Part shown: positions 12,453 to 60,276 of the stretch, piece after piece
Layout: every line of letters begins with the position of its first letter
Numbering within the stretch: the first letter of the stretch is position 1
Position numbers and translations under genes: made by a program
Origin: Microbotryum violaceum
Lineage: Eukaryota
Direction of reading: 5' to 3'
Length of the DNA stretch: 64,000 nt
Assembly: GCA_001244265.2 (NCBI GenBank)
Contig: CDLV01000013.1
Coordinates: 682,001-746,000 of the forward strand
Notes under the pieces: generated by a model
What the model was told of the DNA's origin: nothing
Database searches by the model: none
Seen by the model: only the letters and a program-made list of their open reading frames with translations

Positions 12453-14612
12453 CTAATGGAACGTCCCCTCTGTCGAATCCGCTCCTGAAGCGGCAGTCGC
12501 TGAAGAGCCGGCCGAGACAGCTGTGAATGAGCAAAGTACCGGTATAACCCCAAAAAATCAGTACCCCAACTCTTGCGCATTACGACCACCCCCACCCAGA
12601 CGCAGACGCAGTAGTGTACGGACCATTCAAAACGCGATCGATATAACTCGCGCCTGACCACTTCTGATGCGTCAGCACATCACAACCCAACTCCTTCTCC
12701 TTTTTCTGAATCAATTCGACGTAAGCCAACATCCCTTCATCCTTGTACCTCTTGGCCAACTCGTGCGTCACCACCGCAGTTGAATGTAGACCGGCCAAGG
12801 AGATCAGTTGGAGAACGAATCCGGACGAACCGAGATCCCATACGAAGGATTTGAGTTGTTCGGGAGTGAATCCATGGGCTCCCCAATTGAAGGAAGGGGA
12901 GAGGTTGTAGACGAGCCATTTGGAGGGGAAGTGTGAACGGATTTCGGTCGCGAAAGCTTGCGCTTGGGCAAGGTTCGGTTCTTTGGTTTCGAGCCAGAGC
13001 AGATCGGCCAGAGGGGCGTAAGATAGCGTTCGTTTCATCGCCGCCTGTGGAGAAGAGGTGGTGGTCAATCTCTGTAAGACCGACCCGGAAGGCGCTAGAT
13101 AACGTATGGGAACTTACGGGCACACCACCCTGGTAGTGGTAGTAACCCTCTTTGGTACGAGCCAAGCCCCAATCCCACTTGATCTCTTGACCGACGACTT
13201 CCTTGGCGACGCGTCGAGCCTCTCGGTTGGTCAAGTTGGCCTCCCCAACGCGAGACTTGTAGTCGTCAAACTTGGTCTTGGATTCCGAAGCCGACAAGGT
13301 TCGTTCGAGGTGTCGTTGGACAGCTAAGGGAATCGATCATCTCCAAATCAGTCTGGAATTTCCCTTCTTTTTTGGGGGACAAGAGCGCGAAGGGCGATCA
13401 CCGACCTTGATCAAACGTCACCAACTCGACGCCATTCATCCAATTTGCCTCAATCTCATCAATCTCGGCCCCACTCCTCCCCTCCCTCTCCGCTTTAGCA
13501 ATCTCCTCCGCCAACGCATTCCTATCCCCCTCATGGGTTTCGACCCCCAAAATGAACTCATGATCCCTCCCGTCGGCCGTAGACGAAATCAATTTCGCCG
13601 ATTCGGCATCGGTCCGTGCGATCAAGAGCGTTTCCAAACCCATGATGTCCCATTGCATTCGCGCGGCGACCAGGCGGGACATGTGTTCCGAAATGGGGAC
13701 GAGCACCTTTCCGGCTTGGTGACCACACTTCTTACCGCCGTGAAGTTGATCCTCGAAATGAACGGCCGAAACGCCGGATTCACCAAAAACTTTGGCAAGC
13801 TTGAGTACGGAAGAGAGACCACCGTGGCTGTAGAAAGGGGGGAGTTGATGAATTGAGAGACAGTTTCGGTTTTCGATGATAAAAAGACACCCCTTCGGCA
13901 CTTACCCGGTATCACCATCCGCAATGATTGGTCTCAAATAATCGACCCAAGGCGCCTTGTTGCCACTGGTTCTCCTCTCGTCCCACATCTTGCGATCATG
14001 CATCTCCTGCGCCTTCCTCAACCTCTGCACCTGGTTCGGCACAGTCGTATAAGGGTAATCGGCCAAATCGGGTCCGACCTCGTTGTTGCCAGTGGTAAGG
14101 ACCGAACTGGCCGCCCAACCGGATACATAGAGCACTTCCAAATGGGGAGCCATTTGAGTCATTTGAATAGGGTCGATCGCGCCCATAGTATGCAAAGGAC
14201 GTCCCTCCTCGGCCGCCCGTTCCAAAGCGGCGAAAAGTTTCTTCGCCGAAATGTTGGAAGGGTGTAAAGGAGAGATAGGTTGGGTTCCCCTTTTGGAAGC
14301 GACGAGGGAAGCGGAATAAGGTCGTTTGAGGTTCTTGAAACGTGGGGAATCGAACCATTCTTGGATTTGGTCGGTTTGCGCGGCGAAATCGGCTGCTTCT
14401 TCTTCGGCTGTTGGGGGGTCCAAACGGAAGAGAGGGGCAGAGGAAGAGGTGGATTGGTGGCGTGTAGTCATGGAGGTGAGGGAAGGGGCTAATCGGGCGA
14501 CGGTTTGAGGTCGGGCACAGCTGGTGCGGAGAAGGGATAAGGTCCGTTGACGGGTGCTGCTGAGCGTTGTACGGGCCACGTGTCGCGAGGTGGAACTCAA
14601 TGGTCGGATCAT
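12453..14612 (-). CDS. ICL2: Mitochondrial 2-methylisocitrate lyase (isocitrate lyase family)
   Basis: [13 protein letters not shown] active-site loop, [15 protein letters not shown] (Leu/Ser as in methylisocitrate lyases versus FITLAG in ICL), HQKWSGA; Arg/Ser-rich presequence. Confidence 0.82.
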
Positions 14613-15111
14613 GATCTGTTTCAGTGAACATGGTCGGTCAGTACTCGATCTATCGAGCGATGTGGTTGTGCGCCGCTGCTGCGCCAAGACTGATCGCGCC
14701 AGCTTGGTTCTCCCCCCTCGGCTACTTCTGGCAACGCCCGGCTGACCAACAGATGCCCGTCCGAAGCCGTCGAGGAGCGCAGAAATGGGCAGCAACGTAG
14801 GACGACCCGTCACCTCAGCCAACCCATACAGAAGGTGCTCACCTATAGCCTTCAACACAGAGAATCTCTGTACTCGAGGTCAGAAGGCTTTGCGGGTAAG
14901 CGAGACGAGAGAACGAGAGAGAGGAATGGCAACTGAAGCCCGGGGCAAGCGACGGCAAGCTCGAGCTCAATTCACGCGGCAACCATTCGGAGTTCCGTTC
15001 AAGTGACCCGGGTCCATTCCCCTCGCGATATTATACACCGAGGGGCCCCACAGTCCGAAAAAAAGCATGACCTGCAGCGCATCACCATTACAGCACATTT
15101 CTTCCTTGTAA

Positions 15112-50469: not shown

Positions 50470-53400
50470 CTATTCCTCCTCGCCTTCGAGCGGCTCGTAG
50501 GGCGGCTTGCGAGAACGTCGGTAGTAGCGCCAACCTCCCCAGCCGGTCAGCGCGACGAGCGCCGTCCCCAGTACAGCGACGAGGATGATCCATCCAAAGC
50601 GTCGGAACCAGCTGTGAAACATCGCACAAAGACAGTCAGCACAAAGCCACCGAGGAGACACTAGCCAAGTACGGCAAACAAAAGGGAAAAGGCTCACCCA
50701 GGATTGTAGGGCAAAAGCACCGAGTCAATCATCAACACTCCACCCCCTGCAAGTCTTCGACCTTGACCGTCCACGTCGACGAACGACGGGGTCGCTCGAC
50801 CATAGCTGACGATCTTGGCCGAGTCATTCTCGCCTCCCGTACCACGCGCTCCATTAATACCGACAAGCCAGTCATCATCACCCCATCGGCGGAATGCGAT
50901 CGAGCCGTATCGACTCTCGCCGCCTTCACTTCGGTCGAGTAAAGTCGGGAACAACGCATCGTCGGCCAGTGCGAGGGGCCGTCCATCGGGTTTCAGAGGC
51001 ATGAAGGGGTCGACGGGTATTACATGGAGGCGAACGAGTGCTTCGAGCAAGGGTGGATTCGCATGATAATGGCTTGTGTTGAGACGGGAGAAAGCTTTGT
51101 CGGTCGGACAGAGGATGATGTACGCCGAGTACTCGGGCTTGACCTTCGGCTTTTTGTCCTTCTCGCCATTCTTTCCACCATTCAACAGCGATTCGGTCGG
51201 AGGAGGCGACCTTCCCTCGAGCATCCAGGTCATATTGGCGGCCCGAATCAGTTCGAGCATCGTACTCGCCTTGGCTCCTCGCATCAGCTTGACGGCGGTG
51301 ATGTTGAGCGTCGGTGGGAGCTCGACCTGGTCGATGATGTGCACAGCTCCTGTCGCGGTCAAGATGTTGCCTTCGATCACACGAGCGTCCCTCACCTCAC
51401 CGTTGGTAGCGAGACCGCCGGAGGTCGGACCATGCACCAACACCGTCCCGTTGTCGTGACGAACGAGAATTTCGGCCCCAGAGTCGAGCGTCGGATAGCG
51501 AGCGGCAGCTGTGCGGGGGAAGTCTTCGAAGTAAACGATCTCGTCGATCGCATGATAGCGAACGAGGGATCGAAGCTCGGCGCGAGCCGTCGGAAGAAGC
51601 AGGTACGACATGACGAGACCCAGCGAGGTGAAGGCCTCGTTATCAGGGACAAGATACGTCACAGCAGGTTGGTGTCCCAGCGTATGGTCGAGCGAGGCCG
51701 CATAGACCGAGGCGACAAACGTCGACAGGCGCAAGTCCGAGACAGCTTGGTTGATGATGGGCGCCGGGGGCTCCAGAGTCGAGGAGATGAGGTAAATAAC
51801 TGTGTTGCCGACCACCACCGGTTCGCGAATGACGCTGGCACCTCCAAAGCCAACGAGACCGGGCTTGCGTTCGGAGTTGGGGTCCTCCGAACTCCACCAG
51901 CCCCAGCCGATCGATGCGAGGTTTTGTGATGCGACGTTGACGTTGACGGCGAGGCGTTGTCGCGCATCCCGCAAGTTCCGTCCTCTCAGTTCCGTCCCGA
52001 CCAACATTCCGTCCTTGAGGTCTTCGGGCAACCATTTGCCGCTCACAATTGAGTACAGCAAGAACTCTTTGAGCGCATCACTGCCTGCGGGAGGGAGTGA
52101 TGCACCGCTTACAGTCACTGCAGTACTGTATACTGCGTCCTCGTCTTTCAGAAACTTCCGTTCATTCTGTAGCACCGAGTCAGGTGGAGCCAGGATGGTA
52201 TAAGCTGGTGCTCCGTCCAGTGGTGCAGCGAAGGTAGACTGCGAGGTTGACGACGAGTAGCTCGCAGCCATTACTGCAGGGTCGCCCGAAGGGATTTGAA
52301 CGTAGTGCGAGAGGTTGACGGAGCGCAGCAGGGACACGAATCGAGTCGCCTCCAGCGCAATCAGGTACTTTTCAGCCGTCAATGATAGTGACCCTGATGG
52401 CAGGAGCAAGGTAGGTACGGTGTGGATGACCCCTGTGCGTTGCGTGGATACGGGTGGCGTCAGCCTCTCTCAAGTCTTCTGGGTGAATCCCGTACGGCTG
52501 CGCTCACCATTCAAGGCGAGGATGTCGGGTGTTCCTACTCGAGTACCATTGACCGCGACATTGTTCGATTCGTCCATGGCGATCTCGAGGGTGCTGTTCC
52601 AGATTGTTCGCACTGTGCAATTGGACGTGGGGAAAGTGAGCTCCTTGATCCAGCCAATCTGGACGGAACGCCAGCCAAACACGTACTGGCAGTGGTGGTG
52701 TTGGTCGAGTTCTTGCCGAAGAGAGACGAAACGTATCCGACCTTGCCCTTGCCGACACCTTCTTGCGAGGCCCCTGCACCAAATATCTCGATGAGATCCT
52801 TCTCGGCGAATCCAGATTTAAGGTATTTGCTGGAGTGGGGAAGGACGTCTCGGTCAGGCTCAGATACATTTGATTTTCAACACAGGCGATGAACGTACAG
52901 CTCGAGATCAGACAGAGATGCCCAAGCTTCGTTGGTGGGTACAAACAGTGTCAAATGAGGGGCGGTGGCGATGTAGTTCAGAAGCGACTCGGGTAGCAGC
53001 GAGGCAAAGGTCGACAAGTCGGGGTTGATCCGGATGTGTGCGGCTAAAGTCAAGACGGGTAGAGAAAGGACATTCAACACGTCAGGTTCTAGTAGAACTT
53101 TTGAGAGAATGTTCAGACCAACCCAAATCAACGGGCCTGTGCAGAACCGCGGTCAAGGAAACCAGTGCGCCATTCGTGGCATGGAGAACCTTGTTCTCGG
53201 CAGCTGCCCCACCCTCGCCTCGCCAGTCCCCACCAATCCAGACCTCTTCCTTGCTGCCCTTCTTGATTGCTGACTTTCGCACGACTCTGACGCGTTGTCC
53301 TTGGCCCCGGAGCAACCCCTCGACCTTGTGGGGCTTGTCCGGATCGGGGTTGTCGGGAGGTGAGCCGGGCAGGCTCGGTGGGGCGGGGAACGACTTGTTG

Positions 53401-54047
53401 AAGCTCGAGAGAGAAGGGTGGTATAGCGTCTCATGCAGGATGACCCTGTCGAGTGGCAAGTCGTCAAAGGGGCCGGAGCCGTTCGACATGAGGGAGGTCC
53501 GGTTGTCTGACGGCGGAGGCGTGTCATCGTGGGGAGGCGGGAACAAGGTGTAGTTGAACATGTGGTACAGCAACGTGTCCCTCAACTCGAGTTGGAGATT
53601 ATCACGTTCTTCAGAGCGATTACTCGTCATCAGTGCAGAAGAACCATGCACGGCGTAGGACCAAATCGGGGTGTTCGTCGCACGGACAACGTCGCCGCTG
53701 GTGCTGCAGTTGAGGCTGGGCCGATGACGTTCGGCGCTGTGCTGTTCGGCGAGATGGGACGCGTACTGCTTCTCATGTTCGATCTCGGCCTTGATGGCGT
53801 CATTCGTAGGTGCCCAGAGTACGCTCCCGTTGAGCAAATTGACGGTTGGGATTAACCGAGCGCGTTGCAGCGCCGACAGCAGCATCGAGTGCTCGGGTGA
53901 GTCATTGAGGAGATCGACGAGCGAGATCGAGCGGGCCGACGGCGGAAAAAGGGGCGGCGAAGCAGAAGAAGCAGCGAGTACGAACGAAGGGACGAACAAA
54001 AAGGTCACCAGCAGAAGAGACGGAATTGACCCGAACCGGATGATCAT
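50470..54047 (-). CDS. Multi-FAS1 (fasciclin) domain type I membrane protein
   Basis: Signal peptide; repeated H1 (APTNDA, VPTNEA, VPDNEAF, CPTDKAF) and H2 (ATNG, GAVHIIDQV, VLMIDSVL) motifs; C-terminal TM helix and YEPL tail. Confidence 0.88.
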
Positions 54048-54488
54048 GGTGTCGTCCTCTGGCGCGAGGTTGGTCGAGGGATGACGGTCATGAAGAGGAG
54101 CGTCCGCGCGTCGCTCATCGCGGCTCCATCCTCGACCTGCGATGTGGAGCCGAATTGAAAGGGGTGCCGAGGAATGCCAGCAAATTGACTACTGGCGTCT
54201 GGAAAAGGGAGATATCTCCCACCGACCAGATAAATTGCTTCGGGCGAAAATTGGGCACTAGAGGATTCAGCTCAGAAGTAGCCCATAAATTCCGAAAGGC
54301 CGCGTCACCACTGCACTGTTAAAAGGTCCTTCTTGTTCTGTGCCATGTATGTGCGCGCCAAGTGGGACTCACGTAGTATCGAGGTTCGTAGATGCCCAAG
54401 TATACAAGAAGCGACGGAGCAAGGTGGAGCGGCCCCCTATCCGCGAGCGAGGCTCTCGTCCTCGCCGAGGATAAAAAGAAATACTTGG

Positions 54489-54579
54489 CGACATTGACAG
54501 GATTCGAACCTGCGCTCCCGTAGGGAAACAGATACTTGGAATTCAAATCTGTCGCGTTAACCAACTCCGCCACAATGTC
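54489..54579 (-). tRNA. tRNA-Ser(TGA) with ~8-nt intron and long variable arm
   Basis: Reverse complement: acceptor GACATTG/CAATGTC, G73, A-box TGGCGGAGTTGG, ACAGA-TT-TGA-A[ttccaagt]A-TCTGT, variable arm TCCCTACGGGA, GGTTCGAATCC, T-run terminator. Confidence 0.92.
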
Positions 54580-54643
54580 CAAAAGGCACTTCTAAGCCAT
54601 AGAATTTACTCTATAGCAAATCAACGACAAGTCACGTGACCTT

Positions 54644-54715
54644 GGTTGAGTAGCTCAGCGGTCAGAGCAACTCTGATTAATAGAGTGGACCTGAGTTCAA
54701 TTCTCAGTTCAGCCA
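54644..54715 (+). ncRNA. tRNA-like cloverleaf (pseudo-tRNA) with non-canonical anticodon loop GATTAAT
   Basis: Acceptor GGTTGAG/TTCAGCC+A, D arm GCTC-AGCGGTCA-GAGC, anticodon stem ACTCT/AGAGT, T arm CTGAG-TTCAATT-CTCAG; A and B boxes intact. Confidence 0.8.
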
Positions 54716-54722
54716 AACTTTC

Positions 54723-56352
54723 TTGAAGGTGGCGGATCTCTACCGGCGCGAGTTGTATGCGGGTGGGGGGTTTCACCTTTGGACGCCGCCGGCGGATGTG
54801 CTCGGCGACAACAGCGAGTACGATCGACGCGGGCTCCCGCAGCGACTGGCAATCGCGGCCTGGTACCGGTTCACTGTCGATCGACACAAGAACACGCCCT
54901 GGGCGGTGGCGTTGGCGGCAGGACGGCTCAACGTGCCTCCCCGGATCGGCACCAGCGCACCGCTCGAGGCGATTCTCCCCAAGCCCGTGGCCCGCTTCGC
55001 AATGGAGTAGCACCTTCCGGACCCGGTGCTTCCACAGCAGGCGAGCCAGTACAAGCTGCTGAACATGGCTCGACCGTACACCATCCGTCGCATCCGCCGG
55101 GTCCTGAACGCGAAGGCCTTTACCAACACGCTCGGGCTTAAGGGACCACCGCAGCCGGACGACCTCAGGAGCTTTTGGAAGGCGGCCAACTCGAAGGCAC
55201 TGACGGCGAGGGAGAGGGAAGTTTGGTTCAAGCTGATTCTCCGCTTCACCCCGACGCGCAAGCTGCAACATCAACAAAATCACGACACTTCTCCCGCGTG
55301 CCTCGTCTGCGAAGCGCCGGTGGACGACACCGACCACTACTTTTTCGGCTGCGTTGACTCGCGGAATGTCTGGATCGCGGCAAGGGGCGTGCTCTGCCAC
55401 GCACTCGGGTGCGACACGATTGAGGACGCCCAGTACACGACACTGCAACGGCTCTTTGGCCTCCCCAAGCTCAAGGCCAAGCTCAGCGAACAGGAAGGGG
55501 CGGGCTGGACGATCGAGATGTTCACGGGGATGGTTTTGGAGATGATCAGCAGTGGGAGATGGAGGATGCAGAAGCACGGGACGAGGATGGAAAGCGTGGA
55601 GAGGAGGAGGGTGGTACTGGAGGAGAGGATGAAGTTGAGGGCGGGAGGAGCAAGGGGCGGGCGAGGGCAGTAGAGGCTGGGTTCGATTTCCCCCCCACCC
55701 CACCCGACACACACACACCATCACGCTTCATCTTCCAACAAAACACTGTATACTAAATATCTTGCTTTCACTTTTCATCTATTACAGGTCTGCTTTCGTT
55801 GCTCATGGACCGGCTCGCGATTTGGGATTGACTCGACGGTGGCTCGCGCTCTTTGGCTTCGGGGTTCTGAGTCAAGGGAGGGATCAGCAGACACAGGCAG
55901 AAAGTCGGCTTTGAGGGGCCAGGGACTGCTGAGGTGGAGGTTTTGAGGGGCCTCCACCGCGTCTTGTTGTGACCGAGCATAGACTTAGGACTTCGCGGGT
56001 CAGGGTAGCTGCGCAGTCGCTCTCTTGTCTTTGTCTCGACCGAGTTGGGAAGTGACGGCGGGGTGGGTCTCTTGTCGTTAGTCAATTATTTTTGTACTCT
56101 TTCTCTTTCTCTCTCTGTCTTCTTCTCTCTCTCTTCTTCTCTCTCTCATTCGTCTCCTGGGGGGAGCAACCGCTTGGCTCGGGCACTTGAATCCCAAGTA
56201 TCGGATTGGTGGACACCGGCCCGTTTCTCGCATCTTGCGGGCGGTTTGTGTTATCATCGTCGACTTCCATCTAGTTTTTTCCGTAGGCCAAATAGGGGGA
56301 ACATGAATTGGGGGCAATATGATGAACAGTTTCTACAAAAAACAAAAAAAAA
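54723..56352 (+). mobile_element. 5'-truncated non-LTR (L1/Tx1-like) retrotransposon, family A copy 1: ORF2 C-terminus with zf-RVT, ~660-nt 3' UTR, poly(A)
   Basis: FWK..NS...REREVWFKL...PT...CLVC..DDTDHYFFGC (CCHC zf-RVT); in-frame TAG at 55008-55010; ends TTCTAC-A6CA9. Confidence 0.85.
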
Positions 56353-57691
56353 TCCGATCGACCCGCCGCAGCGCCTTCCGAGACCGGCTCTCCCAGACCA
56401 ATCAATACAATACAACTTGCTCAGCATGGATCGGCCATACACCATCCGTCGCGTCCGCCGAGTCTTGAATGCAAAGGCCTTCACCGACACGATCGGTTTC
56501 AGGGACTCGCTACAGCCCGACGATATCAAGGGATTCTGGAAGGGGGTCAACTCGAAGGCATTGACGGCGAGGGAACGCGAGGTGTGGTTCAAGCTCATCA
56601 GAAACTTCACCCCGACTCGGAGTCTGCAGTTTCATCAAAAGCACGACGACTCGCCCGCGTGCCTCGTCTGTGGAGCGCCCAAGGACGATCGGGAGCACTA
56701 CTTCTTCGACTGCGTTGACTCTGGGAACGTTTGGATCGCCGCAAGGAGCGTGCTCTGCGACGCACTGGGGCTCGACACGATCGACAACACGCATTACACG
56801 GCTGTTCAACGCATGTTCGGACTTCCGAAGCTCAAGGCCAGTCTGCGCGATCAAGAAGGAGCGGGGAGGACGATCGAAATATTCACCGGGCTGGTCTTGG
56901 AGATGATCAACAGCGGGAGGTGGGGGATGCAGAAGTGGGGGACGAGGACGGCGGGTGTTGGGAGGAGGAGGATCATCTTGGAGGAGAGGTTGAAACTGAG
57001 GGCGGGAGGAGCTTGGGGAGGAGAGGGCAGTAGAGGCTGGGTTCGACTTTCCCCCCACCACCACCACACACACACACACCAAATTCTCGTGACATCATTT
57101 TCTCTTACTGTACACTAAACAGATCGCTTTAATCTTTCATTTGTTACAGGTTCACCGTTGCGGATCATGGACCATCTCGCGATTTGGCGTCGACTCGGTG
57201 TGGCTCGCGCTCTTCGGCTTCGGGGTTCTGAGTCATGGGAGGGATCAGCGGACACAGGCAGAAAGTCGGCTTTGAGGGGCCAGGGACTGCCGATGGGGGA
57301 GGTTTTGAGGGACCTTCACCGCGTCTTGTTGTGACTGAGCAGAGACTTGGAGCGTCGAGGGTCGTGGTGGTTGCGCAGTCGTGCTCTTGTCTGCGTCTCG
57401 ACCGAGTGGGAAGTGGCTGTGGGGTGGGCCTTCTGTCGTTGGTACATTTCTTTTCTTTCTTTTTTTCTCTTCATCTCTCTTTCTCTCTCTCATTAGTCTC
57501 CTGGGGGGAGCAACCGCTTGGCTAGGGCATTTGAATCCGAATCTCGGATTGGTGGACTTGGCTCGTTTCTCGCACTTTTGCGGGCGGTTTGTGTTATCAT
57601 CGTAGTCTTCCATCTAGTATTTCCGTAGGCCAAAACAGGGGGAACAGGAACTGGGGGCAATATGATGAACGTTTTCTACCAAAAAAAAAAA
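56353..57691 (+). mobile_element. Family A copy 2, shorter 5'-truncated non-LTR fragment
   Basis: Collinear with copy 1 (CLVCGAPKDDREHYFFDC), same 3' UTR, ends TTCTACC-A11. Confidence 0.85.
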
Positions 57692-57802
57692 TCCTACCAA
57701 AAAAAACCCCGGTTCGTCGTTGCTTTATTGCCTCTTTTAGCTCTTTTTGTAGCGATTCTAAACCCGAAGGATCGTAATTTATGAGACCCCCCCCCCCCCC
57801 CC

Positions 57803-57835
<33 letters not shown>

Positions 57836-58032
57836 GGTTGTGGTCATCATCGTGCATACTGGGCAGCATCTCCTTTATTTCCGTAGGGGGTTTTCTCGTC
57901 TTGCAAATTAGCGATGAGTTTCATACAAAAAAATCTCGCATCTTGCGGGCGGTTTGTGTTCTCATCATGGACTTCCATCTAAGTTTTCCGTAGGCCAAAT
58001 AGGGGGAACATGAACTGGGGGCAATATGATGA
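57692..58032 (+). mobile_element. Cluster of very short retroelement 3' ends
   Basis: TCCTACC-A8 (57692-57706); unrelated ~80 nt plus C17-A31 (57707-57834); diverged A-like end ...TTCCGTAGG...GATGAGTTTCATAC-A7 (57835-57933); family A terminal ~100 nt without tail (57934-58032). Confidence 0.7.
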
Positions 58033-58751
58033 GCTCCAGATGCGGGCACATGTTCTGCCCACTGCTTCGCGATGTTCAGAGAGACTGGGGACCTCACCGG
58101 AGTGTGTGATATGTGGAGCAGAGGAAGAAACAGAGAAACACGCGTTTGGAGAGTGCCCATCGGGACAAGAACTTCGTGACAAAATTGGTCAGGAACTGTA
58201 TCGGGCTACGCGAAGCGAACTCGAGGCACGGCAACAAGGATAGACTGACCTGTAGATACAGGAGCTATGTACCTTTGCTGCCAAACTGGTGAGGGCACAT
58301 TTGTGGTGGTTTGCGACGCCAATGATACCAAAACCGGATATCTACTGGACTCTAGACGAGCGATCGCGGACGCGGCTGGACCGGACATGGCATCATGAGC
58401 TGATCAAAGGGGCTGGGAGAATTTGGGGCGGCCGCATGCGAAATTGGTGGACATTCCAACAGAATATCGAGTAGTATACCTCACTGGTGGAGGCGATGGT
58501 GGCAAGCTTGCCCCATCTACCCTCAGGAGCCGGGAGCCGAGGGGGAGGAGGGAAACTGGTGTAAACCCTGAGAAATGGGGGCATCAGTCCTAATCCCAGC
58601 GAGGCAATGGCCCGTATACAATATGGGTGTATGATATGTCATGTTATGGTGGTCCAGCGGATCTAGCGTTTGTTAGATTCTGTCTTTGAATAAGACTAGC
58701 TGGAATTTATGACTTTAAACATTTAAACAAGTTCTACAAAAAAAAAAAAAA
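58033..58751 (+). mobile_element. Second non-LTR family (B), degenerate zf-RVT fragment with poly(A)
   Basis: HVLPT...SPECVICGAEEETEKHAFGECP, downstream IWxxR; stops and frameshift; ends GTTCTAC-A14. Confidence 0.75.
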
Positions 58752-58760
58752 CCCTTTTTT

Positions 58761-59146
58761 GGCTGGGTTCGATTCACGCCCCCTCCTCATGCCCACCCAC
58801 ATACCAGATCAAAAAAAAACTGTATACCAAACTTTTCTTTCATCTTTTACAGGTCCACCCCTTCGCTGCTCACGGACTGTCTCGTGTTTTGGCATCAACT
58901 CGGGGTGGCGCGCGTTCTTCGGCGTCGAGGTTCTGAGTCAAGGGAGGGAGGGACAAAGGCAAGAAGTCGGGCCAGAGACTGCGTTTGAGCCCCCCCCCCC
59001 CCCCCCACCGCGTCTTGTTGCGACCAAGCAGAGACTAGGAGCGTCGTGGGTCGGGGTGGTGTCGGTGTCGCTCTCCTGTCTTTGTCTCAACCAGGTCGGG
59101 AAGTGGGTGCGGGATGGGCGTCCTGTCGTAGTAAGCCGGTCATTTC

Positions 59147-59216
<70 letters not shown>

Positions 59217-59435
59217 CGGGGGGTGAGCAACCGCTTGGCTGGGACACTGCAATCCCAAGTATTGGTTTGGTGGCCATTTCTTGAATATCGCAGGCCGCTT
59301 ATTGTATCACCGTCAATTTCATTTTTCCGTGGGCCAAACAGATATGATGAACAGTTTATACAGTACAACAAACATAATAATAATGTTCATAACGATAATA
59401 ATCATTAAACAATAATTAAACAATAAAAATAAAAA
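58761..59435 (+). mobile_element. Family A copy 3, 3' UTR only, most diverged, decayed A-rich tail
   Basis: Starts GGCTGGGTTCGA; shares GGTTCTGAGTCAAGGGAGGGA, CACCGCGTCTTGTTG, GAGCAACCGCTTGGCT, TTCCGT.GGCCAAA and ATATGATGAACAGTTT with copies 1 and 2. Confidence 0.8.
59153..59213 (+). repeat. (CT)n microsatellite, ~30 units, inside retroelement copy 3
   Basis: Direct read; corresponds to imperfect CT tracts at 56096-56147 and 57446-57491. Confidence 0.95.
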
Positions 59436-60276
59436 CAGGTCAAAAGAGCTTGTTTTATTCTACAGTAACTCAACCTGACATGTGTGAATCTACGGGGATC
59501 CCATACAGCTTACTTGGGCATGCCTCCAAGGTTTATTATATTCTGGAAACCTGACTCTCAGATAGCGACAGACACGTGCATTGCTATCAAACGGCTTTTA
59601 CCTTGACTGCCTTTGCTGTGCGGCGCTCGCATAGCACGTTCATGGCGAACCCACAGGCAGATTTTGTAAAAAGTGAGGCTACTTGAGCAAGGCAATGCTC
59701 CTTCAGTGGGGGCCTGACGTCCCGTCAAGAGGGGTCAAATGCGCTGGTCCCCGCTGCGAGATCGTGACGAGATCAGCGCAGGATCGCCGATCCAAGCTTT
59801 GCACGTGTCGTCCCCGGCCATCGCGCTTCGCGTCGTTCGAAAGTCAAGGAGGTGTTGAAGTTGATGCGATAGTCCCGGTTATGGCGTATGAAGCCGGTAT
59901 CCGATTCAGTAAAATGACTCCTCTTGAGGCAGGGCTCAGGTCCGTCTCCTCCGACTCGGAGGACCGTTCCGGTAACGTGAAACGTGACTCCGTCGTCTTC
60001 CTTTCGAATGGCCGGGGGCTGGTTTTGACTTTGATGACCGACCACCAGTCGACACCGCCGAGTAATGTCGCGCCGCGCACGCCATCGGGAACCGTTGCGT
60101 CAGCGCGCGCGAGCGAACGTTCGCTCAGCTCTACGGTGCTGCTCCCTTTCACTGCTTCTTAACTCTTTCGTACTCGCATCATCTCACACCATCACGAGCA
60201 CTCTACCCATCGGGCTCAGGGGTCCTCTTAAGGCCCAATTGTCGTGTGTACCGCTATCGCCTTCTTGCTGCGTCTT

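What the first reader, a model, noticed from the sequence alone, without database searches (positions are those of the whole stretch)
54644..54724. Well-folded tRNA-like gene with central TTA (ochre-reading) triplet but G32/A33
Seen: all four stems pair and the A and B boxes are intact, which suggests conserved structure. The anticodon loop is GATTAAT: it lacks the invariant U33, and its central triplet TTA would read UAA. Only TTTCTT follows before the retroelement, so the terminator is weak or disrupted. Genes here still use TAA as stop (e.g. CAT2), so recoding is unlikely. Inference: a non-decoding tRNA-like Pol III RNA, a SINE head, a TFIIIC-binding decoy that attracts the retroelements, or a weak suppressor.
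Basis: partly seen in the sequence, partly recalled or inferred. Interest (0 to 1): 0.72.

Follow-up and report, generated by a model that had tools for sequence, protein, structure and literature searches.

The report
Multicopy tRNA look-alike fused to LINE
This well-folded tRNA look-alike is one copy of a repeated, probably non-decoding tRNA-derived element of an anther-smut fungus, here joined head-to-tail to a broken LINE retrotransposon; it is not a lone stop-codon suppressor gene.

Summary
Window 54644-54715(+) is a 72-nt cloverleaf (Rfam tRNA 49.9 bits; ARAGORN "tRNA-Stop", anticodon tta) with loop GAUUAAU (G32, A33, U34-U35-A36). Only AACTTTCTT separates it from a retroelement.

New here:
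- The window is from Microbotryum, which uses the standard code. TAA ends the isocitrate lyase reading frame.
- The 80-nt core 54643-54724 is not a single gene. In contigs of 4 public runs it sits at about 17-27 times single-copy depth with 0 differences. Single-copy paralogs also exist, with 6-9 differences.
- The odd loop is the family's normal state.
- Other copies share flanks that this copy lacks: a conserved upstream block, and downstream a longer T-rich stretch (TTTCTTTTGTTTT or TTTCCTTTGTTTT).
- The copy here runs from -1 to inside the first T-run. At 54725 it joins, in the same orientation, a 5'-truncated APE-type LINE (residue 1652 of 1966).
- A close relative's genome carries a different repeat from exactly 54643 on.

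Best reading (0.5): a retro-copy of the family's Pol III transcript, fused to the LINE by template switching, 64 bp upstream of tRNA-Ser(UGA). Main rival (0.3): a resident family member whose terminator was cut by a LINE insertion. A working suppressor is unlikely. This would be a new member of known kinds; interest is moderate.

The parts
54643..54724 (+). Repeated core shared with the other family copies: 1 nt leader, tRNA-like body and 9-nt trailer
   Evidence: The single-copy contig of X1 runs from unique DNA to 54672, which is 30 letters (k-1) into the repeat. X10 record 11 (83 nt, 0 other letters, depth 84.2 against 4.8) spans 54643-54722. Loose ends of other copies start before 54640 or 54643 and behind 54722 or 54724.
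54644..54715 (+). tRNA-like cloverleaf, 72 nt, discriminator A73, 4-nt variable loop, no encoded CCA
54675..54681 (+). Anticodon loop GATTAAT (G32 A33 U34 U35 A36 A37 U38). G32 and U38 can pair, leaving a 5-nt loop
   Evidence: The stem-loop folded alone gives 6 bp and a 5-nt loop. No variant reaching 10% of depth lies in the loop in any of 4 runs; the only such variant in the core is 54682 A>G.
54716..54724 (+). Trailer AACTTTCTT: a T-rich stretch cut after two Ts
   Evidence: Other copies continue TTGTTTTCC... or (from 54723) CTTTGTTTTCC.... The next run of four or more Ts on this strand is at 55173-55176.
54725..56353 (+). LINE copy 1, 5'-truncated. ORF2 C-terminus 54726-55673 with an in-frame TAG at 55008-55010, then 3'UTR and an A-rich tail
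   Evidence: zf-RVT PF13966 at 27.1 bits against a cut-off of 27.5. 88 of 94 residues identical to residues 1652-1745 of the 1966-aa protein P0125, which carries Exo_endo_phos, RVT_1 and zf-RVT. The family contigs read C where the window has T at 55008.
56354..57696 (+). LINE copy 2, more truncated, 79% identical to copy 1, A-rich tail
57934..59341 (+). Further LINE 3'UTR pieces (57934-58032 and 58810-59341), and between them a fragment of what looks like another LINE's zinc-finger region
   Evidence: blastn; sequence. The second-family fragment was read by eye only.
54489..54579 (-). Divergent neighbour: tRNA-Ser(UGA)-type gene with a long variable arm, an intron of about 8 nt and a TTTCTTTTT terminator. 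Its 5' end lies 64 nt from the tRNA-like 5' end
   Evidence: Rfam 53.6 bits. Anticodon, intron and terminator were read by eye. Single-copy depth.

Best explanation
The tRNA-like sequence is one member of a family of roughly 20-35 copies of a tRNA-derived, Pol III-type element in Microbotryum. Its body keeps a full tRNA shape and A/B boxes, but its anticodon loop is fixed in a non-decoding form (G32, A33; G32-U38 can close the loop to 5 nt). Inferred: this copy is not a resident gene. It is a DNA copy of the family's Pol III transcript, running from about its 5' end to the first Us of the T-rich stretch. The reverse transcriptase of an APE-type LINE, while copying a LINE RNA at a nicked site 64 bp upstream of a tRNA-Ser gene, stopped at ORF2 residue 1652. 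It then switched template to the 3' end of the tRNA-like RNA and copied it to its 5' end. This is the mechanism known for U6/L1 chimeras and for the Magnaporthe WEIRD/MGL chimeras. Having lost its T4 run, this copy, if it is transcribed at all, would read about 460 nt into the LINE. It does not act as an ochre suppressor.
For: Shown:
(1) The core is multicopy, and the loop is the family norm. All 4 runs laid hold the core at high depth. X10 has an 83-nt contig with 0 differences at depth 84.2 against 4.8 for single copy. X14 has a 140-nt contig (80 nt of other upstream sequence plus 54643-54702) with 0 differences at 588.4 against 21.4. Single-copy paralogs exist with 6-9 differences. The only core variant reaching 10% of depth is 54682 A>G: 427.1 of 2921.1 in X1, 16.5 of 100.6 in X10, 46.1 of 1318.9 in X14, 3.15 of 126.3 in X15.
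(2) Copies are dispersed. X14 record 23 (22,675 nt, single copy) starts inside a copy and goes on in unique DNA. X14 record 18 (350 nt) holds a paralog with unique DNA on both sides.
(3) Other copies share flanks that are absent here and absent from the whole window. Upstream they read ...CTATTCC(CAC). Downstream they carry a longer T-rich stretch.
(4) The boundaries fit an RNA. Identity starts at -1, or at -4 against one paralog, and ends after 2 Ts of the first T-run.
(5) The join to the LINE is direct and in the same orientation. The LINE is cut at residue 1652 of 1966 and ends in an A-rich tail.
(6) Run X14 is a close relative (5 differences in 1,643 nt). Its single-copy contig leaves the window exactly after 54642 and enters another repeat, so the tRNA-like is not old at this site.
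(7) Four of the five features listed for LINE chimeras by Gogvadze et al. 2007 (PMC2104539, Background read) are met.
(8) Head-to-tail poly(A)-to-LINE joins occur elsewhere in the genome (loose end at 54772 in X15) and twice in the window.
Against: - No target-site duplication was found. No word of 6 nt or more is shared between 54616-54646 and the DNA after any of the five A-rich tails.
- No listed contig bridges 54724|54725. Only 32 of 97 pieces were printed, so that joint rests on the window's assembly.
- A leader of 1-4 nt is short for a primary Pol III transcript.
- The sequence that follows 54642 in X14 is not found in the window. An empty site was therefore not shown, and the history may be more complex.
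- Expression of the family was not shown; no RNA holder was listed.
- Depths are sums over overlapping unitigs, so copy numbers are rough. I could not tell whether the bulk of identical copies is dispersed or sits in one repeated unit.
Confidence: 0.5

Rival explanations
1. Resident family member hit by a LINE. A normal, locally transcribed copy of the tRNA-like family sat head-to-head with tRNA-Ser. A 5'-truncated LINE later inserted into its terminator T-run and removed the rest of it.
For: Divergent tRNA gene pairs are common (recalled). The family trailer AACTTTCTT is kept up to the joint. Family flanks vary between copies (agreement 0.72-0.93 among loose ends), so an unrelated upstream need not mean retro-copying. 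LINE pieces pile up at this locus.
Against: The close relative X14 lacks the tRNA-like at exactly its 5' edge. Both conserved flanks are missing at once. For a + oriented APE-type LINE, the T-rich top strand lies at the 5' joint and not at the priming end, so the T-run is not an expected target (inference from the TPRT model, recalled).
Confidence: 0.3
2. DNA-level fragment of a longer repeat. The family is the LTR of a Helenus-type TRIM, or another composite repeat. This copy is a piece left by deletion or recombination within a retroelement pile-up.
For: In other copies the tRNA-like is embedded between conserved upstream sequence (at least 80 nt identical at about 27x in X14) and conserved downstream sequence. 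Helenus LTRs carry tRNA-like sequences, give spurious tRNA-Sup predictions in rust fungi, and occur in the same subphylum (PMC10886601; sections 12, 15 and 19 read).
Against: Kojima reports that no Helenus was found in Microbotryum. Both breakpoints coincide with RNA ends, which random deletion would not favour. No LTR ends, PBS or PPT could be examined. Helenus tRNA-like parts usually do not fold as tRNA (abstract), whereas this one does.
Confidence: 0.12
3. Working ochre suppressor or recoding tRNA: the RNA is charged and reads UAA.
For: The cloverleaf and the tertiary-pair positions (U8-A14, G18/G19 with the T loop, G15-C48, G53-C61) are intact. The triplet at 34-36 is UUA and position 37 is A. 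Many identical copies exist.
Against: A33 replaces the near-universal U33, and G32 replaces a pyrimidine (recalled rules). G32-U38 can shrink the loop to 5 nt. TAA ends the isocitrate lyase frame. About 20-35 copies of a suppressor would be costly. This copy lacks a terminator.
Confidence: 0.03
4. One-off mutation, sequencing error or assembly error in an ordinary tRNA gene.
For: None beyond the prior.
Against: The same 80 letters, loop included, appear with 0 differences in high-depth contigs of X10 and X14. The loop shows no variant reaching 10% of depth in any of the 4 runs.
Confidence: 0.02

Closest known systems
LINE template-switch chimeric retrocopies: U6/L1 and tRNA/L1 in mammals; WEIRD/Mg-SINE/MGL in Magnaporthe (PMC2104539; bioRxiv 10.1101/2025.02.02.635956)
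   Same: The 5' part is a full-length small RNA copy, the 3' part is a 5'-truncated LINE with an A-rich tail, and the two are joined directly in the same orientation.
   Different: No target-site duplication was found. The mammalian tRNA/L1 chimeras described in the preprint are mostly half tRNAs in antisense orientation (passages), whereas here the whole body is present in sense. The captured RNA is itself a repeat-family transcript.
Helenus (TRIMp3): non-autonomous LTR elements with a tRNA-like sequence in the LTR (Kojima 2024, PMC10886601)
   Same: A multicopy tRNA-like sequence with A/B boxes inside a larger conserved repeat, in a Pucciniomycotina fungus. Such elements produce 'suppressor tRNA' predictions.
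   Different: Reported as not found in Microbotryum. LTR, PBS, PPT and TSD could not be tested here. This body folds as a full tRNA. The supplementary tables of that paper could not be seen.
tRNA-derived SINEs (SINE2), e.g. Mg-SINE (recalled)
   Same: A tRNA-related head with a Pol III promoter, tens of dispersed copies, and association with a LINE.
   Different: In the copies seen, T-runs follow the tRNA part directly and no LINE-like or A-rich tail is visible. The main class has conserved sequence upstream of +1. REPET found 0 SINEs in M. lychnidis-dioicae (PMC4469406, Table 2 passage).
tRNA-gene-targeted non-LTR elements of Dictyostelium (TRE5, about 50 bp upstream of tRNA genes; PMC5006619 passages; PMC3159450 search listing)
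   Same: A pile of LINE copies begins 64 bp upstream of a tRNA-Ser gene. A related genome has another repeat at the same nucleotide.
   Different: Only one locus was seen, so no statistics are possible. The LINE has L1-like domains (APE, RT, zf-RVT) and is unrelated to the TREs as far as tested.
Classical ochre suppressor tRNAs (anticodon UUA mutants; recalled)
   Same: UUA at positions 34-36 and A37.
   Different: A33 and G32, a multicopy repeat context, and no terminator in this copy.

Membership tests
Decoding (elongator) tRNA | Cloverleaf with conserved tertiary positions | tested here: met
   Rfam 49.9 bits, full model length, all stems paired. U8, A14, G18-G19, G53-C61 and T loop UUCAAUU were read.
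Decoding (elongator) tRNA | 7-nt anticodon loop with Y32 and U33 (rule recalled) | tested here: not met
   G32 and A33. The Rfam alignment shows no consensus match at these two positions.
Decoding (elongator) tRNA | Pol III terminator (run of four or more Ts) close behind the gene (rule recalled) | tested here: not met
   TTTCTT is followed by the LINE; the next T4 is at 55173. Other family copies do have T4 runs.
Ochre suppressor / recoding tRNA | TAA read as sense in the organism | tested here: not met
   The isocitrate lyase frame ends in TAA at profile position 505 of 526. Long ORFs are intact under the standard code.
Ochre suppressor / recoding tRNA | RNA made, CCA-tailed and aminoacylated | not testable with these tools
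   No RNA holder was listed. The contigs cannot show RNA ends.
LINE template-switch chimera | 5' part is a full-length copy of a cellular RNA | tested here: met
   Identity with the family starts at -1 and ends in the first T-run.
LINE template-switch chimera | 3' part is a 5'-truncated LINE with an A-rich tail, joined directly in the same orientation | tested here: met
   Joint at 54724|54725. The LINE runs from residue 1652 of 1966 and its tail ends at 56353.
LINE template-switch chimera | Flanking target-site duplication | tested here: not met
   No shared word of 6 nt or more after any of the five A-rich tails. Nesting of later LINE copies may hide it.
tRNA-derived SINE (SINE2) | tRNA-related head with A and B boxes; many dispersed copies | tested here: met
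   A box TAGCTCAGCGG matches 10 of 11 and B box AGTTCAATTCT matches 8 of 11 positions of the recalled consensus. About 17-27x identical copies plus single-copy paralogs in unique contexts.
tRNA-derived SINE (SINE2) | Element starts at the tRNA head and ends in a LINE-related or A-rich tail with TSDs | tested here: inconclusive
   The main class has at least 80 nt of conserved upstream sequence and T-runs right after the head. Only 30 letters of each flank were visible.
Helenus / TRIMp3 | tRNA-like sequence lies inside an LTR; two LTRs, PBS, PPT and a 5-bp TSD | not testable with these tools
   Only 30-letter flanks of other copies were seen and no genome is held. Conserved flanks on both sides are compatible with this family.
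tRNA-gene-targeted LINE (TRE5-like behaviour) | Insertions at a fixed distance upstream of many tRNA genes | tested here: inconclusive
   One locus only. All 4 LINE pieces of the 64-kb window lie here, next to its only 2 tRNA-type genes. X14 has another repeat at the same nucleotide.

The most novel reading that the evidence does not exclude
Microbotryum keeps a family of tRNA-shaped Pol III RNAs with an intact L-shape but a fixed non-decoding anticodon loop. These RNAs are repeatedly captured by an APE-type LINE through template switching, at LINE landing sites just upstream of real tRNA genes. That would be a SINE being born in a fungus where none is reported, together with the first tRNA-gene-targeted LINE in a basidiomycete.
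Probability: 0.15. Interest if true: 0.6.

Novelty: new member of a known kind. Interest (0 to 1): 0.38.

Why it matters
It removes a false lead: a 'suppressor tRNA' call in a fungal genome is really a repeat. The same repeat will inflate and distort tRNA gene counts in Microbotryum assemblies. It points to a tRNA-derived repeat family in a genus where one survey found no SINEs (PMC4469406) and another found no Helenus elements (PMC10886601). If the chimera reading holds, it is a clean fungal example of a LINE reverse transcriptase switching onto a whole Pol III transcript, which is the step thought to create new SINEs. It also marks the upstream side of a tRNA gene as a possible LINE landing site.

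Tried and rejected
- No whole genome is held for the window, so copies could not be mapped.
- Public collections held no exact match. Metagenome contigs gave 0 hits for an anticodon-arm pattern with a free loop and 0 hits for the T-arm plus acceptor. Prokaryote genome contigs gave 0 hits.
- Earlier findings of this scan: nothing by place or by sequence and nothing for a 7-word query. A 3-word query returned 8 phage or bacterial suppressor cases that do not bear on this one.
- No RNA holder was listed. The 'RNA?' run X15 shows the same depth ratios as the DNA runs, so it says nothing about expression.
- Flanks of other copies, and the X14 continuation, were searched in the window. There were 0 matches at up to 3 mismatches and only chance words of 8-14 nt.
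- A protein-level hunt for called ORFs spanning the core found nothing. The first query was too short. There were no hits among longer proteins. The one hit in the representative library is a 4,978-aa repeat protein with 10 of 27 identities per repeat, which is spurious. The 173 proteins held contain none of the six-frame 7-mers of the core.
- No tRNA-like fold lies in the LINE 3'UTRs. The Rfam scan at E up to 10 over 53500-59800 found only the two tRNAs plus sub-threshold noise.
- A 15-of-16 match between the tRNA-Ser anticodon/intron region and LINE copy 1's 3'UTR is marginal: 1 of 200 shuffles reach it, it is weaker in copy 4, and it is absent in copy 2.
- I could not assign an isotype. No isotype models were available, and comparison with remembered tRNAs gave nothing firm.
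- My first guess of the genus (Ustilago) was wrong, so searches were aimed at the wrong organism.
- The differences between LINE copies 1 and 2 are not dominated by transitions (150 transitions, 129 transversions). The copies are diverged lineages and not RIP-mutated twins.

Full report
**The observation**

The stretch 54644-54715(+) matches the Rfam tRNA model over its full length at 49.9 bits (gathering score 29; E=1.1e-7 for the 64-kb window against 4,227 families). ARAGORN reports 'tRNA-Stop, anticodon tta'.

All four stems pair: 7, 4, 5 and 5 bp, with two G-U pairs in the acceptor. The positions that build the tRNA L-shape are in place: U8, A14, G18-G19, G15/C48, G53-C61 and T loop UUCAAUU. 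The cloverleaf costs -22.0 kcal/mol, against -23.8 for the minimum-energy fold. That fold pairs GGUCAGAG with CUCUGAUU.

The anticodon loop is G32 A33 U34 U35 A36 A37 U38, so U33 and the pyrimidine at 32 are missing. Folded alone, the arm forms a sixth pair (G32-U38) and a 5-nt loop. After discriminator A73 come AACTTTCTT, and then at 54725 a retroelement.

**The surroundings**

A second tRNA-type gene lies on the other strand, with its 5' end 64 nt away (54489-54579, 53.6 bits). Read by eye, it is a Ser(UGA) type with a long variable arm, an intron of about 8 nt and a TTTCTTTTT terminator.

From 54726 one reading frame, broken once by TAG at 55008, encodes the C-terminal 315 residues of a LINE ORF2:
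- zf-RVT scores 27.1 bits, just under the 27.5 cut-off.
- 88 of 94 residues are identical to residues 1652-1745 of a 1,966-aa Microbotryum protein. That protein carries Exo_endo_phos (688-914), RVT_1 (1210-1377) and zf-RVT (1801-1867).

The copy ends in an A-rich tail at 56353. A second, more truncated copy follows directly (56354-57696, 79% identical), and then further 3'UTR pieces reach about 59341. These are the only pieces of this LINE in the window.

**The organism**

An RCC1-type protein of the window is 100% identical to one named from Microbotryum silenes-dioicae and 88% identical to one from M. saponariae. All 52 LINE hits are also from Microbotryum.

The code is standard as far as tested. 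Long ORFs are intact, and the isocitrate lyase frame ends in TAA at profile position 505 of 526.

**It is a repeat family**

Contigs of four public runs were laid on 53000-55300. Unique DNA sits at depth 57 in X1, 4.8 in X10 and 21.4 in X14. From 54643 the depth jumps.

- X10 has an 83-nt contig covering 54643-54722 with 0 differences at depth 84.2, about 17x.
- X14 has a 140-nt contig at 588.4, about 27x. It consists of 80 nt of a different upstream sequence plus 54643-54702, with 0 differences.
- Single-copy contigs carry paralogs with 6-9 differences. Some of these are embedded in unique DNA, for example a 22,675-nt contig that starts inside a copy.
- The only variant in the core that reaches 10% of depth is A>G at 54682 (position 39). 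It accounts for 427.1 of 2921.1 (7 contigs) in X1, 16.5 of 100.6 (3) in X10, 46.1 of 1318.9 (2) in X14 and 3.15 of 126.3 (1) in X15.

The GAUUAAU loop is therefore the family's normal state. It is neither an error nor a private mutation.

Summed depths probably count overlapping unitigs twice (my inference), so I put the family at roughly 20-35 copies. Only 32 of 97 laid pieces were printed.

**The boundaries of this copy**

Other copies share flanks with each other:
- Upstream they read ...GGGTGCACCG...CTATTCC(CAC).
- Downstream they read either AACTTTCTT+TTGTTTTCCAATT... or AACTTTC+CTTTGTTTTCC.... Both contain runs of four Ts that could stop Pol III.

Neither flank occurs anywhere in the window.

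The window copy shares the family sequence only from -1 (from -4 against one paralog) to the second T of the first T-run. That is what a Pol III transcript of a family member would contain. It is then joined directly, in the same orientation, to a LINE cut at a position inside ORF2.

Four of the five hallmarks listed for LINE template-switch chimeras are met (PMC2104539, Background). The fifth, a target-site duplication, was not found.

For a + oriented APE-type LINE, the T-rich top strand lies at the 5' joint. This fits an RNA U-tail better than an endonuclease target. That argument rests on the recalled TPRT model.

**A close relative differs exactly here**

In X14 (5 differences in 1,643 nt) the single-copy contig follows the window up to 54642. 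It then carries 30 other letters, the signature of a repeat boundary in a unitig graph. These letters are not in the window.

So in that genome another repeat starts at the very nucleotide where the tRNA-like starts here. This argues that the tRNA-like arrived at this site recently, as part of an insertion. It also argues that the site, 64 bp upstream of tRNA-Ser, has been hit more than once. It argues against the idea that the tRNA-like drew the retroelements here. An empty site was not seen, so the order of events remains open.

**What the family is**

I cannot decide among three options: a SINE-like retroposon, the LTR of a Helenus-type TRIM, or a cluster of Pol III genes.

Kojima (PMC10886601; abstract and sections 12, 15 and 19 read) describes tRNA-like sequences inside TRIM LTRs of rust fungi. 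In those genomes every 'tRNA-Sup-CTA' prediction comes from such elements. He states that none was found in Microbotryum. His supplementary tables could not be seen.

The M. lychnidis-dioicae genome paper lists 392 LINE copies, 0 SINEs and 134 tRNAs (PMC4469406, passages).

Two searches did not turn up a description of this family. One search found 33 papers, of which 20 were listed. One search found 719 papers holding at least 4 of the 5 terms, of which 12 were listed. Beyond the listings, I read passages of two Microbotryum papers and sections of the Kojima paper.

**Mechanism and function**

Shown:
- the fold;
- the non-canonical loop;
- the multicopy state;
- the family flanks;
- the truncated T-rich trailer in this copy;
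- the LINE joint;
- the difference from the close relative.

Inferred:
- Pol III transcription of family members;
- template switching by the LINE reverse transcriptase;
- lack of decoding.

With A33, G32 and a loop that can close to 5 nt, the RNA is unlikely to read codons. I could not test charging or expression. If this copy is transcribed at all, the transcript would run to the next T4 at 55173.

**Verdict**

The feature is a new member of known kinds: a tRNA-derived repeat and a LINE chimera. Interest is moderate.

Noticed in passing
54489-54579 (-): A tRNA-Ser(UGA)-type gene with a long variable arm and an intron of about 8 nt after position 37. ARAGORN missed it (1 gene reported) but Rfam found it (53.6 bits). 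It is single copy in all DNA runs.
   Followed up: partly
54642|54643: In coded run X14, a close relative, the unique contig leaves the window exactly here and enters another repeat. The same nucleotide is thus the edge of two different insertions in two genomes, which may mark a retroelement landing spot 64 bp upstream of the tRNA-Ser gene.
   Followed up: partly
56187-56207, also about 59246-59264: The LINE 3'UTR carries a 15-of-16 match (15 of 18 in another copy) to the sense strand of the tRNA-Ser anticodon arm plus intron. It is marginal against shuffles (1 of 200 and 9 of 200) and absent in copy 2.
   Followed up: partly
55008-55010: The only in-frame stop of LINE copy 1 (TAG) is private to this copy. 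All laid family contigs read C at 55008, giving CAG. Five more private differences lie in 54901-55186.
   Followed up: no
58033-58480: A LINE 3'UTR piece (57934-58032) runs, without an A-tail, straight into a fragment that reads like the Cys/His zinc-finger region of a different LINE family. This is another direct retroelement-to-retroelement joint (read by eye only).
   Followed up: no
55675-55696, 57035-57056, 58761-58782: Just after the ORF2 stop, each LINE copy has GGCTGGGTTCGATT..., which resembles a tRNA B box (consensus recalled). No tRNA-like fold was found there.
   Followed up: partly
12583-14879 (-): An isocitrate lyase gene in at least two exons (Pfam ICL, 166 and 173 bits). Its last exon ends in TAA.
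   Followed up: no
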